The notes under the pieces were generated by a model, which was given only the letters and a program-made list of their open reading frames with translations, had not been told where the DNA came from and ran no database searches. Shown here one piece after another: positions 7,148 through 42,327 of a stretch of DNA of 64,000 nucleotides (position 1 is the stretch's first letter; each line of letters begins with the position of its first letter). Both the position numbers and the translations under genes were made by a program. The stretch comes from Raja brachyura (taxonomy: Eukaryota), in NCBI GenBank assembly GCA_963514005.1, contig OY740809.1, positions 20,832,001 through 20,896,000 on the forward strand, given 5' to 3'.

Positions 7148-7874
7148 CAAATATTCTATAATGTTGTGCTATCTCTGAGCAGAAATAGAAAATTAGAAAT
7201 TAATACGTGCTACTTACAAATCTATTGAACATACTAGTTGTTAAATGCTTCAAGATATCCCGACGTTAAAAAAAGCTCCATGTAAGTGCATTCTCCTATT
7301 CTCTTTCCAAAAGTGAAAACTGTAATCTATTTTTCATTGTCATAATATGAGGGCACTAATACTTAAATGCATCTTCATATTCCTTTTCAAGTCCAGCATA
7401 CGTATTTGATAAAATGAAAACAAGTTTTTTTTGCAGCTTCATGGATATTCTGAAATGCTCAACCTCTCTCTCGTGGTTTGTCAAGGGCAAATGGTAGAGG
7501 TTTCTTGGAAAAGTTAAAATTGTGTCTCCAATGAACGTCTGCCAGTCTTAAAGCATTCTCTTCACTGGCCATATCATAAGCATCTGTATCTGAAGCTTGT
7601 CTGTATTTACTGAGTGAGGCATTCTTCTTGTCAAGCACTGGGGACCATAAAACATTACCAATTGAAATAAATACCTGGACTATAAATTGACCCTGTATAC
7701 TTTGAATGCCTCTCGAGGACAACATTTGCTTATATATTTTATTCACTCGCAGGAATCTCTGAGGGCCTTTGAATGTTTTTTATTCATTTAATCTTTTGCT
7801 TTTATTTCACCTTTGCTTTTCCATTTCCTCCTCATTTTGCTTCTGCTATTCTCTGTTTGCTTCATGGTGATTAG

Positions 7875-7970
7875 CATAAGGAGCAGTTTGTCACGAAGAA
7901 TTTGCGCTTGGCCAGACCGCCGTCCTGCGTCTCTGAACGCTGCCAAGAGGAGGCGGATGATGTTGAGGGG
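7875..7970 (+). CDS. MACF1: Putative alternative cassette exon in CH1: HKEQFVTKNLRLARPPSCVSERCQEEADDVEG
   Basis: Long polypyrimidine tract, then ttag|CAT...GGG|gtaggt. 96 nt, phase 0/0, no stop, GC/CpG-rich relative to the intron. Same position as the plectin 3alpha/DST insert and with a similar ...LRL motif. Confidence 0.8.
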
Positions 7971-24399: not shown

Positions 24400-25620
24400 T
24401 TGAGTTGCTACGCCGCACGGTGGTATTTGACTCGAGCTGACACGGTGTATGTCTATCAACGCAGCAATGATTCTCAATGTTGTCTTTTGTATTTCTAATC
24501 GCGGCCACAGTGTAAATAAATACTCATCACGTTTTACCCGGTGGGTTTGGTGTAGTTTCATGTGCTCTGCAGAAGGCCCCCGACCTCATTTGTGACATGC
24601 CGCAGCCGGCCGCTGCTAGTGCTGAGACTGCGGTATCGCTCAGCATTGAGTTCGCAGATGAACTGGACGTGAGTGCGTTGCACACTGACTGCTCGCTGCC
24701 TGGGCGTGGTTTGTCGCAGGTTGAGAGGATTTTATGTGTTGCTGACACAATATCAGTCGGATTCTGCCACAGCCGAGCCGGGCCGAGCCACCCGTTGTGT
24801 GTCTGTCTGTTGCCCGAAGGGGAGCTTATTTGTTGCCCCAAGTGGGTAAATGGTCGGGTTATCTCGCCCTGCCGTGGACATTGGCCATCCGGTGGGTGAG
24901 ATGCCGAGTTGAAGGATACTGCTTGTTCAAGCTACTGTACCAGTGCGCTGATGGTACTTTGTGGAGGCGCGCAGTTGCCCAGAGAGCCAAGGTGATCCTC
25001 GGCACCGTGGCCACAGCCTGGGGAGAGTGGCCACCGCTATGGTGACAGACGCTGCCTGAAGATGGCCCGCCGTGCGGAGAAGGCATTGGCGTGCGGATTC
25101 TCCCCGGCAGAGGTGCAACTTTTCCCGTCTGCTCAGCTCGATTGCGGCTGTGTGTTTTAGGCTGATTCGGGCTGCCTGCAATCTGATGCCTGCACAATGG
25201 GAACCACTCTGGGATGCGTCCGAAAGCAACGAGAGGCAGCGGGAGCGGATGGGAAACAAACCCCCCTCACGCCGCGGAGGAAAATCAAATTTAAACGCTT
25301 CAGAAGAAACAGGAAAGGAGATGGGGAGAGGGGAGAGGCGGTGGGCAAGGGGGAGCAGCCCGGTAAATCAGTGCCGCTGGAAGCTGGTGAGACGCGTCTG
25401 CCCAGCGCTGTAACTGCAGGGAAATTAACACCAGGCTCCGGCTCCGGCTCCGATCCCCGCCCCACTGCCGGAGATACCACCCGCTCTCCCAGCCCGCCAC
25501 GGGAGTTGCACAAACCGGCACGTCTCAGACATTTATCACACCTTTCTTCTCCGACAGAGAAATCAATAGATCTAAATGCCGAAGCCAGTGGCGAAGGCAC
25601 GCAGCAGGTGCTATCAGCCA
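24400..25620 (+). promoter_or_regulatory. CpG-rich island; putative internal promoter and 5' UTR of the isoform-3-type first exon
   Basis: Abrupt rise in GC and CpG density in non-repetitive sequence directly upstream of and overlapping ATG 25197. Boundaries estimated by eye. Confidence 0.65.
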
Positions 25621-26291
25621 AACCAGTTGACGAACATGCGATTACATTTGCAAAGGACATATCTTTACATGATCCAATCCCAGCACCGGGGGAGCACTCT
25701 GATCCACAAGTCAACATGAAAGGAGATTTAATTTTCCCAGTCCCAGTGTCTGGAGACGAGAACCGAACTCGAGTAAGGAATAAGATAATCCCCAATACCC
25801 CTGACGTCGCTGCCTTTGATTGTAATGACACGGAAGATGGTCTCGAAAGTCCCACGTTATCCCGGGGGACGCTCAAACGGAGCCTGCAGCTTGACTGGGA
25901 GGGGAACAACGCAAGTAGAGTTGACAAGTTGGTGAAAACTGTACATGGGGAACGCGTACATGCCAAGGACGGCCAGCCAACAGTGCCCAGGGGGAATGGC
26001 GCTCTAGGAGAGGGAGCACAGTTTATGAGACAGTCTCCCATGAAGAGGGACTTCACCGTGGAGCCACAGACCTGTCCCACTCTGTTCTCCTCGGGTTATG
26101 GCAGCAATCTGGCGTCTGCCGAAATAAATGAGAGTGAATCTGGAAGAACAAGCAGCAGAGATTTCGAGTTGTCATCCTCCATACCGGATGGAGACATTCT
26201 GTCTCTTTCAGAAAATGAATTGGGATTTTCCACTGGTAATGAATGTGATGATATTAGTTTAGGCCAGATGGGGCATCTGAGCCAGGACATG
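25197..26291 (+). CDS. MACF1: Alternative first coding exon (isoform-3/a3 type), 365 aa, MGTTLGCVRKQRE...SSGYGS...SQDM, splicing to CH2
   Basis: Strong Kozak context acaATGG; donor ATG|gttagt at 26291 is phase 0, matching the 30168 acceptor. Resembles the recalled mammalian MACF1 isoform-3 start MGNSLGCVKE...PKKRVRFKRR and its SSGYGS motif. Confidence 0.88.
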
Positions 26292-28365
26292 GTTAGTGGA
26301 AGCTTCTTGATATTATGAAGAAACATAACTGATTATTTACTTATTTTCTCTTACACATTATGAATGTTCAATTGTGCATGCATTATTTTAAATAGCTGCT
26401 TCGTTCCAACACTCATAATTTGGTGCAGTTAATATTATTGGTACTGCATTCATTTCCTTGAAATTAAGTCAATTAAGAATTGATTTAATTAGTACCTGGC
26501 CCTTGATCATCTCTGTAGTTATAATTTATAATGATGTGTTTTCAGTAGGTTTTATTTGTGTGACCATGAATCATGTTGTTTACTGGAGTGCCGGCTGAAT
26601 ATAACAGGGTCATTATCCATTCCATAGCTGTTGATAGAGAAAGGTCCACTGTTTCTATTTCCTTGTGGGTCAGTGAGTGTTGGTGGGAAGGAGGATTCTG
26701 CTAACAGCTCCAATGGACCCCACTCCCATAGAATGAATTATATGTATTGCCTCTCCTCAGTTCTTTCACACAGAGCCCACATTGCGGCCACTCACACTGT
26801 AGTGTTTAGTGTGTAGTGTGAATTCAAGTTCCAGGTTCCTAACGTGTATAGGATTCTAGCTTGTATAGGATCCAAACTTGTATCGGATTGTCAAGTTTCA
26901 GGATCCTAACTTGTAACTTGTATCCTCAGGTGGGTGCTTTGGGTGCCTAATGGCAATCCTTTTGAAAAAATCTTCAATGTTCAAGGCATTGAGACCAGTG
27001 GGATTCCCCTCATATTTTTCAGCAAGTGACCGGTTATACAGATATCCACTGCAAATGTTCAAAGAAATTAAACATATTTTAGAGCTTCTTTAAAACAGAC
27101 CACTTTGACCAAGCTGTGTACATACACAACTGTCCACATGTCCCCTTCTGGCTCAGTGTTACTTTTCCTACAGATTGATTTTGCTGCTGTGAAGTACCTT
27201 GGGATATTTTGCTGTTAAAGATGCCAAGTAATCAGTTCTTCTATCAAGTACATCAAGTTCATGTGTTGATGTTTCTAATTTTGCGCACGCAACTATGTAC
27301 TTTGGTCCCATTACAGTACCATATAGCGAGATAAAGCTTAAGTGTTGATGGGATTGGGGAACAGTGTTGAAAACAATAAGTGGATCATTTTCAGATTGTC
27401 AGCAACTACTGCATAAATAATTACTAAGATGTCGCGACTTACAATTTGTACTGGCCACTTGTTCGAAGGACTGATTGTAATGTAACCAGCTATTCTGAGT
27501 GCTAGTGAGAAAGTAAGTTCTAAGGAAGGTGCAGAGACCCCAAAAGCATTTTGACTGGCAGATATGAGTCTATAACTATAGCAAAAAGAATTGAAAGTTG
27601 AGGAGGCAGCGCAGTGTTGGCCATATTGATAGGTGCGGGGTCACAAAGAAGGGCAATGATAAGGTTGATGTTACAATTATATTTTCTTGGCTGAACAATC
27701 GGTAGCTTTGGAGGCATATCCACAGGATAATAGATTGGACATTTTAGATTTGGATGGCACATGGTTCTTGGTACATAGATAGGATAGGTTTGGAGAGATG
27801 TTGGCCAAACTCAGGCAGTTGGGACTAGTGTAGCTGTGGGCAAGTTGGGCCAAAGGGACTGTTTCCACGCTGTATCACTATGACTATGGAACATATAATT
27901 ATTTGAACTCTGATGGATTTAAGTGTTGTCGTTTAGATTTAGATGTAGATTTAGGTCACATGAACCGAGATACTGAGAAAAGATTTTGTTTGTATGCTAT
28001 CCATTCAAAACAGATAATGCTATACATGGATACATGCAAGCCAACTGCAAGACAAAAGAGACCAGTGAATTATTTAGTGTTAAATGGAACAATTAAATTC
28101 TACACTTACAAGTACAACAGGTAGCACGTAGAGAAAAATATTAGAGTACAGCATTTTGTTACAAAATACTAGGTTTTCAAGAGAGTCAAGAGTGTTTAAT
28201 TGTCATATGTCCCAGATAGTACAATGAAATTCTTACTTGCTGCAGCACAACAGAATATGTGAACATAGTACACTGTAAACAATATAATAAACGAGATAGG
28301 AAAAAAAAAGTTCAGTGTGTGCATATATAGACAGACTCACAAATACACACATACATAGATATAGA

Positions 28366-38548: not shown

Positions 38549-38816
38549 GTAAGACATTGAGATCCAGAAATTGATTTAAACATTAATAAAGTGTTGTCTG
38601 AATCAGGTCTGAGGATTCATTTTAGTTCAGTTTACTATTGTCATGGGTTCTGAGGTACAGTGAAAAGTTTAATTGGTGAGGCAAAAACTTTGTTTTTTAA
38701 TTTCTATATGTTTTAAGCCCTCTGAATTACCACTGAAAACTGTGCACGTATATGCATTATATGTTGTGCACTTGGTACTTGTCATTGATTGTATGAATTA
38801 ATTACACCAGGTCTAA

Positions 38817-39118
38817 AGGGCCTGTCCTACTGTACGAGGTAATTCAAGAGTTCTCCCGCGTTTCCCCTGATTCTCGGAGAATTACGGTAATAGCCGCTCG
38901 TAGGTACTCGGGGCTCTCGTGGACATTTTTCAACATGTTGAAAAATCTTCACGAGCTTACCGCGTTTCCCGAGTACCTGACGTTAGCGTTACGAGCCACT
39001 GAAAGACGTCCCGAGCTCCGACGTACCCACTACATACATTCTACGTACTTACCACGAGTTTGATTTTTTTTAAACTCGGGAGAGCTCTTGAATTACCTCG
39101 TATAGTGGGACAGGCCCT
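38817..39118. mobile_element. PIF/Harbinger-type MITE
   Basis: About 47-bp TIRs agggcctgtcc.actgtacgaggtaattcaagag..ctcccg; TAA TSD at 38814-38816 and 39119-39121. Confidence 0.88.
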
Positions 39119-39403
39119 TAACTTTTCGAGAAATCTCTTTGTGTTCATGCTCATCACACCAATGTTTGGCCAAGACATTCACAAACGTTCACTGGAGAAC
39201 AAGATTAATCAGCCACTATTTTTCTGCAATGCATCAAAATGTATAGCCCGTCATATGATTTTATTTTAGCTGCTACGATTCTATTTTAGATTTGTGTTTA
39301 TCGCCTGAATCTAGCAAGCAAGCCCTAGTCAATGTAGTAAAGGATGAAGTTCTGGATACATTTTGTTGGATATTTTTCAATAAATCTATATCTTTGCCTC
39401 TAG

Positions 39404-39531
39404 GTTTGGATAGAGTTTGGTCGATTTTTGCTTCCCCAAGGTTTCCACCCCAATGATGTAGAAGAAGAATGGGGAAAACTGATCTTTGAAATGTTAGATC
39501 GAGAGAAAGCCCTCAGACCTGCAGTAGAAAG
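39404..39531 (+). CDS. MACF1: Exon: [42 protein letters not shown](R)
   Basis: ctctag|GTT...AG|gtttgt, 128 nt, phase 0/2. Confidence 0.95.
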
Positions 39532-40740
39532 GTTTGTTTCTGTGTTATAATGAGGTTTGGTCTACAAGCAAGTGCAATAATAGATTAAAGTAACATTTTC
39601 ATACTATTCTCTGCAGAGCTGGCCATTGGCATATTTAACTTTCCATCAGTACCCGCAATTTATGAGCATTGATATTCCTTTGAGGCACGCATTAATTTGG
39701 TATTAGAAATTGTTGATGCATCTGCCACCACAAAAGGGCTGGGAGTGTATGCACTGCAGATTTTTCAACAGTGAAATATGTTGTTGCAGAAATTAATTAT
39801 TTTGATATATTTAATGTTACAAATATTCAAAACAGAAACACAATTTGTGTATTTATGAAATTCAGGACACAGCAACGACTAAATAATGGTGTGACACATC
39901 AGCAGAGCTGAGTATTATTATGACTGAACATCTTTCACTTTGAATTGTGAATCTCATCTGAAAGGGAATTTCACATAATGGCAAAATGAATTTAGAGGGA
40001 TGACTTTAGGAAACCCATTGCTTTTTTTTTAAACTTGGACCAGTTTGGCTTTGTTCGTGGGGCTTTAGGTTCTTGTATTGTGCATTTTGAACATTATGCG
40101 TATTCTTCAATAAATAAACTGACTTGAACATATGTTTGATTTGTTCATGGAGGTCAGTGTAGGATTTTTTAAATGAGGATCTCCTATTGGATTTTTTAAT
40201 GTGCAGAAAATAGTGTTTCTTGTAGTAAAATATTTTTAGTAGGTTTATTTTCTCCTATCCCTCATACTGGGAATTTTTATATTTGTATGTGACTTTATAC
40301 AAAAATTGCAATTATCATGTAGCATGTTTCATATTTAATGAGCAAGATGTCAACTGCAGTAATGTGTGTAATTAAATAGAATACAAATTATGCATTTATC
40401 TTATTACGCTAATTACACCACAAACATAAAAGAACAGCATAACACATTACAACTAAAAGTAAATACCGCTTCAGCGACCCTTTGGTGGGTTAATCTGCTG
40501 AGTAGGCCACAAGCCAGCCAGCTGACTTCAATTGTCTTTAATAATCTTAACTCATGCTTTAAAGTTGTGTTTTCATGTGACATTGTATGGATTGTTTCCT
40601 GGGGTGCCTGATGCTGCACAAGAAAGTTGTGGTCATTTGTGTCCTTGGGTTAGCGTTTGCTTTACCAGCTTCCCATCACTCTGGCACTGCTTCAATGACA
40701 TGGAAGGCTAAACCATTATCAAAGGCCAAATTGCTGTGAG

Positions 40741-40802
40741 ATGTTCAAAAAAACATCTGTATCCTTGTGTAACTCGGGGAGGAGATTGTTAGTATTTGGA
40801 AG
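40741..40802 (+). CDS. MACF1: Putative alternative first coding exon MFKKTSVSLCNSGRRLLVFG(R), giving an isoform without the actin-binding domain
   Basis: ATG at 40741 with an upstream in-frame TGA (40696-40698); strong donor GAAG|gtgagc in phase 2, matching the phase-2 acceptor at 41303. Confidence 0.7.
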
Positions 40803-41302
40803 GTGAGCTAAGGATTTATAGTTTCTTGTTTGGGAACATATTTTCCATTGGAAATATTGGAATTATACCATTGAATAAATAGCATGCAATTTTTAATTAC
40901 TCGGCAACCTGCGTTTCAGTTTGCATCAATCGTTTTTATACTCTGCGAACAATTTTGACCACAAATTTCATAAATATTACTTTTTAAACAAGTCCAATTT
41001 TTAATGCATTTTTGTGTAACAATCAAAGTTTCCCTATTTACCCAAATGTACAAAATAGGCAACGTTAAGAGGAATGGTTGCTACATTTCACAAATTTATG
41101 AATCTGTTATGTTTCATGGAGTAATTAATTTATTTTCATGTATATGATAAAATATTTGAAATTATTGCCTTAACTCTACTATATTAGAAGAAAACGGTTT
41201 GATGCAAACAAATGCATTATGCAATGAATACAAATAATTGCATTACAGAAAGCCACATTAGTAAATTGAAATTAATTTATTCTGTTTTATTTTATATTCA
41301 AG

Positions 41303-41396
41303 GCTGGAACTACTACTGCAGATTGCCAATAAAATCCAAAATGGAGCTTTAAATTGCGAAGAAAAATTAACATTAGCCAAAAATACCCTGCAGGCT
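41303..41396 (+). CDS. MACF1: Exon: LELLLQIANKIQNGALNCEEKLTLAKNTLQA
   Basis: ttcaag|G...GCT|gtaagt, 94 nt, phase 2/0. Confidence 0.96.
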
Positions 41397-41505
41397 GTAA
41401 GTAAAGATGTCAACTCCAAAGAAATCAAGCAGTTAGACTGCCCACTAAAGATGAAAAAAAACTGGATTTCTGTTGACGTCTAATAAATTGAATTTATTTT
41501 TACAG

Positions 41506-41660
41506 GATGCTACTCATTTAGAATCAGGGCAGCAGTTTCATTATGAAACTGAAGTGGTCATGTACTTAGAAGAGTGTGAACGATTAATACGACAGCTACA
41601 AATTGACGTGCAGATTCTCCGAGATGAGAAGTATTATCAGGTGGAACAGATTGTTATGAG
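41506..41660 (+). CDS. MACF1: Exon: DATHLESGQQFHYETEVVMYLEECERLIRQLQIDVQILRDEKYYQVEQIVM(R)
   Basis: ttacag|GAT...AG|gtaagt, 155 nt; preceded by a 109-nt intron. Confidence 0.95.
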
Positions 41661-42327
41661 GTAAGTGTAGATGTGTTTATCTGCACTGACACACTCATTA
41701 TTCTTGCATTAATGCAGATCCAACTATGCTTAGTTATAATATTTCAATATATGTCATAAAATTAAATAATTGTAGTTGAATTGGCAACTGGAACTTTGAA
41801 AGATACATGCCCATTCAGTACAATACAATGTGGCTTCCAATTTAAATTACCTGCTGTCGCAGTTAAATAGTAATCACGATTTGGATACTTGCACAAAACT
41901 GAAGCTTCTCGTGCAATATCAAGGCAGTTATTTCATTGCTTCGGTAACTGGTTTTGCTGCAACATAAAACCTTGATTGAGTGGATAACGAACATCTACTC
42001 CATAATGTATTACATGCTCTAAATTGTCAAAATTACATGCATGTAGTCGTTTGATAGGAGGATGTATATTTAAATTCTTAAAAACCTTCTGCAGAAAACA
42101 ATGACAAAGCCTTTTACAATGTTTTACTGAATAAATTGGTGTGATGTGGGTTTTGTGTTATTTATTGATGATTATGCATGCATGCATGCTTGGTTATTGT
42201 TGATTCAAATGTTTTGCTATCAAAACCATTTCAAAAGTGCAAGTGCTGAATTTTGTGTAAGTAGAACAGTCGTGTATTTTCTTTCCAAATATCTTGAATT
42301 CTCAGCATGCTCGCCATCTTTTCGCAG

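What the first reader, a model, noticed from the sequence alone, without database searches (positions are those of the whole stretch)
40741..40802. Third N-terminus: short first exon at the BPAG1e-equivalent position, giving MACF1 without an actin-binding domain
Too short for the ORF track. The ATG, upstream in-frame stop and a consensus phase-2 donor exactly fit the next exon, giving MFKKTSVSLCNSGRRLLVFG-R-LELLLQIANK (seen). In the paralog DST, the epithelial isoform BPAG1e begins with a private exon that joins the homologous RLEMLQQIAN exon (established). I also recall a mammalian MACF1 entry starting MFKKS...RLELLLQ, which I cannot verify. This suggests an ancient, little-studied 'e-type' MACF1 promoter shared with DST.
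Basis: partly seen in the sequence, partly recalled or inferred. Interest (0 to 1): 0.75.

Follow-up and report, generated by a model that had tools for sequence, protein, structure and literature searches.

The report
Possible BP230-type first exon in MACF1
An intron of a skate-like fish's MACF1 cytoskeletal-linker gene holds a start codon, a short reading frame and a splice site at the same spot where the sister gene dystonin starts its skin form, so it would likely give a MACF1 without its actin-binding head, but no transcript was seen and the mammal-, bird- and bony-fish-type introns sampled are too short to hold it.

Summary
The gene is MACF1 of a skate-like fish. The paralog DST in this genome has a BP230/BPAG1e-type first exon in the same intron and phase. 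The candidate is the only ATG-frame with an AG|GTRAG donor in 58.8 kb of window introns (chance about 1-2%), although a window-trained donor matrix calls it ordinary. Its peptide weakly resembles the DST one (p about 0.005-0.14). Against: 210 of 210 cartilaginous-fish MACF1 models holding that exon use the canonical junction; 3 of 6 RNA-like runs join across the intron, none shows the new junction; in 34 bony-vertebrate-type read-through ORFs the intron is only about 71-144 nt, so the recalled mammalian entry and a vertebrate-wide promoter are not supported. Verdict: plausible but unproven ancestral e-type exon (about 0.45 functional, 0.35 chance).

The parts
40741..40802 (+). Candidate coding part of an alternative first exon: ATG, 20 codons, 2 bases (phase 2)
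   Evidence: Sequence; chance tests; weak likeness to the DST e-type peptide. No RNA support.
40803..40808 (+). Donor GTGAGC of the putative 500-nt intron 40803-41302
   Evidence: Only AG|GTRAG site in intron 39532-41302
40696..40698 (+). In-frame TGA upstream of the ATG; rules out a longer coding exon in this frame
40451..40810 (+). Single-copy stretch of raised G+C (0.425 against 0.32 and 0.268 on either side); possible 5' UTR or promoter; six ATGs lie 41-187 nt upstream of 40741
   Evidence: single match in the genome for 40600-40900 and for the whole intron; no Rfam match
40425..40431 (+). TATA-like CATAAAA, the only hit of a small promoter-motif regex in 40201-40741; function untested
39402..39531 (+). 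Upstream constitutive MACF1 exon, end of spectrin repeat 1, phase-2 donor
   Evidence: RNA-like contigs; PDB 4Z6G (CH1-CH2-SR1) ends in this exon's peptide
41303..41396 (+). Constitutive exon that starts spectrin repeat 2 (shared acceptor)
   Evidence: Pfam PF21020 starts at the junction Arg in human MACF1 fragment P0307
41506..41660 (+). Next constitutive exon (rest of SR2)

Best explanation
The 62-nt stretch is likely the coding end of a BP230/BPAG1e-type alternative first exon of MACF1 that would splice in phase 2 onto the SR2 exon and so give an isoform with a 20-residue tail in place of the actin-binding domain and spectrin repeat 1. Shown: the sequence anatomy, the paralogous position in DST, the domain boundary. 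Inferred: an internal promoter in about 40.4-40.7 kb; descent from an e-type start that the DST/MACF1 ancestor already had; retention in this lineage and loss, with collapse of the intron to about 100 nt, in the bony vertebrates sampled; low or tissue-restricted use (probably epithelial), which would explain its absence from gene models. The protein would keep SR2-SR9, SH3, rod and, with the usual 3' end, the EF-hand/GAR microtubule-binding tail, so it would act as a microtubule- or junction-linked plakin that escapes the Src/FAK-gated actin binding of full-length MACF1. It is unlikely to bind integrin beta4 as BP230 does, because it lacks most of the docking residues.
For: Phase-matched ATG frame and consensus donor, the only one of its strength in 58,774 nt of window introns in any phase, in the one intron predicted beforehand by the DST analogy. 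DST of the same genome (G000:C5, minus strand) has a 158-nt ATG exon, phase 2, CAG|GTAAGT, in the homologous 7.9-kb intron; read against the residues named in bioRxiv 10.1101/402123 it keeps G37, T39, N42, S43, S46, so it is the BP230 tail. The MACF1 peptide aligns to it collinearly: local BLOSUM62 score reached by 28-52 of 3000 shuffles, 9-13 of 1529 intronic 20-mers and 1-2 of 434 Met-starting ones. Single-copy, G+C-raised setting. The intron sits on the SR1/SR2 boundary, where BP230 also starts.
Against: 0 of 210 cartilaginous-fish MACF1 models (20 species) that hold the SR2 exon use another upstream exon; seven species' isoform sets were nearly complete (hand count: Rhinoraja 11 of 11, Heptranchias 16 of 16, Pristiophorus 11 of 11, Narcine 15 of 15, Pristis 19 of 20, Mustelus 20 of 21, Stegostoma 18 of 19). 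RNA-like contigs of 3 of 6 runs join 39531 to 41303 directly. The window-trained donor matrix makes the site ordinary. Global alignment weakens the peptide likeness (22-422 of 3000 shuffles) and there is no DNA likeness (204 of 500). In a close relative's DNA run (X19) the contig over 40689-40840 differs at 4 of 152 bases against 22 of 1427 and 10 of 1806 in the flanking contigs, so no sign of extra constraint; the positions were cut from the output. Six upstream ATGs, one in strong context at 40700.
Confidence: 0.45

Rival explanations
1. Chance: a cryptic donor with an upstream ATG in ordinary intronic DNA, picked out because the reader looked in this intron.
For: No model and no RNA junction; chance of 9-20% at the median real-donor score and 29-62% with the window-trained matrix; no extra constraint in the relative X19; no DNA likeness to the DST exon.
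Against: Two roughly independent features each at about 1-2% (donor with frame and phase; peptide likeness) coincide in the intron predicted by the paralog.
Confidence: 0.35
2. Relic: a true descendant of the ancestral e-type exon that is no longer, or hardly, used and is now drifting, the same loss that went to completion in bony vertebrates.
For: Likeness to the DST tail with loss of most beta4-docking residues; absence from models and RNA; differences clustered over the exon in X19; shrunken intron in bony vertebrates.
Against: An intact ATG, open frame and consensus donor would not last long without selection (inference); only one relative's contig hints at drift.
Confidence: 0.14
3. The donor is real but belongs to an internal poison cassette exon (acceptor at 40654 or 40669) that would send MACF1 mRNA to nonsense-mediated decay; the ATG is incidental.
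For: AG sites with 12-13 pyrimidines in the preceding 20 nt lie at 40654 and 40669, within the range of the window's real acceptors (11-18); inclusion of 40669-40802 gives an early stop. Decay would explain the missing transcripts and models.
Against: Those acceptors are at the weak end; the rival does not explain the phase fit or the peptide likeness.
Confidence: 0.06

Closest known systems
BP230/BPAG1e, the epithelial isoform of DST, and its private first exon
   Same: Private ATG exon in the intron between SR1 and SR2, phase 2, joined to the SR2 exon; product lacks ABD and SR1 (bioRxiv 10.1101/402123, first part and passages read).
   Different: Other gene (MACF1); tail of 20 against 52-55 residues; lacks N42, S43, I45, S46, F47 equivalents of the beta4-binding motif; no CpG-rich setting (4 CG in 360 nt against 25 in 568 nt for DST); expression and 3' end unknown.
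Mouse MACF1c (Goryunov et al. 2010, known to me only through reviews: PMC4914211, PMC3352950, PMC8012552, PMC5623738, PMC5979291, passages read)
   Same: MACF1 isoform without the actin-binding domain.
   Different: The passages read give no first exon for MACF1c, and PMC3352950 calls its structure predicted. It cannot come from a private coding exon in this intron if, as in the mammal-type ORFs, the intron is about 74-88 nt.
Human MACF1-4 (Gong et al. 2001, through PMC4914211, passages read)
   Same: ABD-less MACF1 from an alternative start.
   Different: Described as starting with plectin repeats, not a short tail on SR2.
Periplakin, envoplakin, desmoplakin type of plakin N-terminus
   Same: The SR2 exon's peptide matches Pfam PF23160, periplakin's first spectrin repeat, below its cut-off; that these plakins start with a short head before this repeat is recalled.
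   Different: Separate genes without an upstream ABD; no alternative promoter involved.

Membership tests
BPAG1e-type (e-type) first exon of a spectraplakin | Lies in the intron between the SR1 and SR2 exons | tested here: met
   same intron as the DST exon
BPAG1e-type (e-type) first exon of a spectraplakin | Own ATG, upstream in-frame stop, donor in the phase of the SR2 exon | tested here: met
BPAG1e-type (e-type) first exon of a spectraplakin | Transcribed from its own promoter and spliced to the SR2 exon | tested here: inconclusive
   0 of 6 RNA-like contig runs of relatives cover it, 3 of 6 join across it; contigs drop rare forms; no run of known tissue; no CAGE tool
BPAG1e-type (e-type) first exon of a spectraplakin | Sequence homology to the BP230 N-tail | tested here: inconclusive
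   p about 0.005-0.017 local, 0.005-0.14 global, depending on gap costs and null
BPAG1e-type (e-type) first exon of a spectraplakin | Integrin beta4-binding motif (BP230 residues 26-55) | tested here: not met
   By eye against residues named: only G37 and two hydrophobic residues have counterparts; the tail ends before 42-47
BPAG1e-type (e-type) first exon of a spectraplakin | Epithelial expression and a short rod-PRD C-terminus | not testable with these tools
   No tissue-labelled RNA or long reads available
Mouse MACF1c | Same first exon conserved in mammals | tested here: not met
   Mammal-type read-through ORFs give an intron of about 74-88 nt; 0 of 420 proteins begin MF[KR]. The MACF1c paper itself was not seen.
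MACF1 gene (host) | Exons closest to MACF1, not DST or PLEC | tested here: met
   SR2 exon 100% identical to shark MACF1 XP_078423163.1; most window exons 91-100% identical to Amblyraja models; DST is a separate locus

The most novel reading that the evidence does not exclude
Cartilaginous fishes keep a working BP230-like internal promoter in MACF1 that predates the DST/MACF1 duplication and was deleted in bony vertebrates; this unannotated isoform would be a living trace of how ABD-less epithelial plakins arose from a spectraplakin gene.
Probability: 0.35. Interest if true: 0.55.

Novelty: new variant of a known kind. Interest (0 to 1): 0.36.

Why it matters
Voelzmann et al. (bioRxiv 10.1101/122010, passages read) state that isoforms lacking the whole ABD seem restricted to epidermal DST, and the origin of mouse MACF1c is not given in the reviews read. 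A real e-type exon in skate MACF1 would date that start site to before the two genes split, show a lineage-specific loss in bony vertebrates, and give a cheap RT-PCR target. It would be an isoform-evolution result within a known mechanism (alternative first exons), not a new kind of system, and it would not bear directly on human MACF1 disease because the sampled mammal-type intron cannot hold the exon.

Tried and rejected
No RNA holder on record was listed for 40480-41670; 14 RNA-guess runs held at most 0.15 of the words, about what the two constitutive exons give; this blank is no evidence. 6 of those 14 were laid; none covers 40741-40802; lack of cover in contigs proves nothing. Protein search with the 52-aa exon among 92-2000-aa proteins: nothing. 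Metagenome scan for vertebrate DNA around the SR2 exon: no locus. Rfam over 39500-41400: no match. PDB search with the candidate and with the DST tail: no hit for either, so no structural control. A plectin locus was not found in two own-genome searches, so a third paralog could not be compared. Repeat origin of the element: not supported, single match (that search skips common words). Five database models without a CH domain that start at or just before the SR2 exon (P0301, P0331 without Met; P0318, P0335, P0348 with intron-like read-through) were rejected as evidence: none has a separate first exon like the candidate. Four of 38 rows (P0306, P0307, P0320, P0321) were dropped as false regex matches in spliced proteins. 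Literature searches found no description of a MACF1 first exon at this position; the library lacks most subscription papers, and Goryunov 2010 and the supplement of bioRxiv 10.1101/402123 (36-species BP230 tail alignment) were not seen and may bear on this. Earlier scan notes held nothing on this locus.

Full report
Setting. The window lies at G000:C31:20832001-20896000 of a 2.7-Gb genome and covers the N-terminal half of MACF1: the 31-residue exon at 41304-41396 is 100% identical to shark MACF1 XP_078423163.1, and most window exons are 91-100% identical to Amblyraja radiata models, so the animal is a skate-like cartilaginous fish (inference).

Observation. Every stated feature is there: ATG 40741, in-frame TGA 40696-98, 20 codons plus two bases, donor AAG|GTGAGC, and a phase-2 fit to the acceptor at 41302/41303. 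The intron that holds it runs 39532-41302; contigs from 3 of 4 RNA-like runs of relatives join across it. It lies on a domain boundary: the MACF1 structure 4Z6G, which holds CH1, CH2 and SR1 (PMC5476826, passages read), ends in the upstream exon's peptide, and Pfam PF21020 starts at the junction arginine. An isoform starting here would lack the actin-binding domain and SR1.

Is it more than chance? Two donor models disagree. With a general vertebrate table (recalled numbers) the donor beats 22 of 24 donors of the window's exons, it is the only such ATG-frame-donor in 58,774 nt of window introns in any phase, and Markov-sampled introns match it in 21-39 of 3000 trials (32-63 of 3000 for the literal AG|GTRAG); relaxing to the median real donor gives 258-612 of 3000. 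With a matrix trained on the window's 24 donors it scores below all of them and chance is 572-1232 of 2000; that matrix is thin (no C at +6 among 24, and some donors were picked from approximate exon ends). I weigh the first more, and take a few percent as a fair figure. The element is single-copy, has raised G+C (0.425 against 0.32 and 0.27) and a TATA-like CATAAAA at 40425, but also six upstream ATGs within 187 nt.

The paralog. DST was found at G000:C5. Its homologous intron (7896 nt) holds a 158-nt ATG exon at C5:100156046-100155889, phase 2, donor CAG|GTAAGT, in a CpG-rich patch. Manso et al. (bioRxiv 10.1101/402123; first part and passages read) state that BP230 has a 55-residue isoform-specific tail, lacks SR1, and name the beta4-docking residues; the skate DST exon keeps G37, T39, N42, S43 and S46, with conservative changes at 40 and 41 (my reading by eye). 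The MACF1 peptide aligns to the DST tail in collinear blocks: in three local settings 28-52 of 3000 shuffles, 9-13 of 1529 intronic 20-mers and 1-2 of 434 Met-starting 20-mers score as high; in four global settings 22-422 of 3000, 13-153 of 1529 and 2-46 of 434. There is no DNA-level likeness (204 of 500). This is a hint of common descent, not proof, and the MACF1 tail lacks most of the beta4 motif.

Other vertebrates. The recalled mammalian entry was not found: 0 of 420 fetched proteins begin MF[KR]. More telling, many unnamed hits are genomic ORFs that read from the upstream exon through the intron into the SR2 exon. After dropping 4 false regex matches from 38 rows, 34 give an intron of about 71-144 nt (14 exact, 78-144 nt; 20 approximate). 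Their exon sequences match named mammal, bird and teleost records (assignment by likeness, except the named Serinus and Stegastes models). Such an intron cannot hold a promoter, a 62-nt exon and a second intron. The method sees only short stop-free introns, so it does not speak for every bony vertebrate, but it does rule out a shared e-type MACF1 exon in those sampled. The known ABD-less mouse isoform MACF1c (PMC4914211, PMC3352950, PMC8012552, PMC5623738, PMC5979291, PMC12918444; passages read) therefore likely starts in another way; its primary paper was not seen. PMC8500715, PMC8670236, PMC4171495 and PMC10290092 (passages) added nothing on the start site.

Cartilaginous fishes. Of 218 fetched records, 210 (20 species) hold the SR2 exon and all 210 have the canonical upstream exon; 8 lack the region. 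Seven species' isoform sets were complete or one short (hand count), but 26 of 41, 21 of 36 and 32 of 47 members of the Amblyraja, Mobula and Chiloscyllium clusters were not listed, so an e-type model there is not excluded. Skate models show at least four other N-termini, so this would not be the third. Six of 14 RNA-guess runs were laid: 3 join across the intron, none covers the candidate; contigs drop rare forms and tissues are unknown. Two close relatives' DNA covers the site; in X19 the contig over 40689-40840 has 4 differences in 152 nt against 32 in 3233 nt of its flanking contigs, and the break pattern looks like a cluster of heterozygous sites (inference); positions were cut from the output, so whether ATG or GT is hit is unknown. 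At about 1% divergence these runs have little power.

Mechanism and verdict. Most likely reading (0.45): a BP230-type alternative first exon, inherited from the DST/MACF1 ancestor, kept here and lost in the bony vertebrates sampled, used at a low level or in few tissues, giving a MACF1 that starts at SR2 without actin binding. Rivals: chance cryptic donor (0.35), decaying relic of that exon (0.14), poison cassette using a weak acceptor at 40654 or 40669 (0.06). It works like the BPAG1e start by position and phase; membership is unproven because expression is untested and the beta4 motif is not met. The searches named found it nowhere in print, and the scan's own notes had nothing on it. It is a new variant of a known kind if real; interest 0.36, and 0.55 if confirmed.

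Noticed in passing
G000:C5:100156046-100155889 (minus strand; L004): BP230/BPAG1e-type first exon of DST in this skate-like fish, 52 codons, phase 2, CpG-rich; keeps part of the integrin beta4-binding motif but has changes at the P38, I45 and F47 positions.
   Followed up: partly
window 25197-26309: Large alternative first exon (MACF1a3 type, CH2-only isoform) starting MG..LGC, 85% identical to the Amblyraja model; a lipidation motif is recalled for the DST counterpart, not tested.
   Followed up: no
window about 7860-7970: Optional exon inside CH1, present in some Amblyraja models (P0177, P0185) and absent in others (P0187); could tune actin binding.
   Followed up: no
P0023 (unnamed, teleost-type): ORF with intron-like flanks on both sides but no intron between the SR1-end and SR2-start exons: possible loss of this very intron in a fish, or a partly spliced RNA.
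   Followed up: no
P0287, P0288 (Narcine bancroftii RefSeq X9, X8): ABD-less MACF1 models that start further downstream, near the SH3 region of the plakin domain, with their own N-terminal peptide.
   Followed up: no
   Followed up: partly
window 39288-39292 and about 38800-39120: Both relatives' DNA runs have 169 other letters at 39288-39292; a very high-copy repeat lies at about 38800-39120.
   Followed up: no
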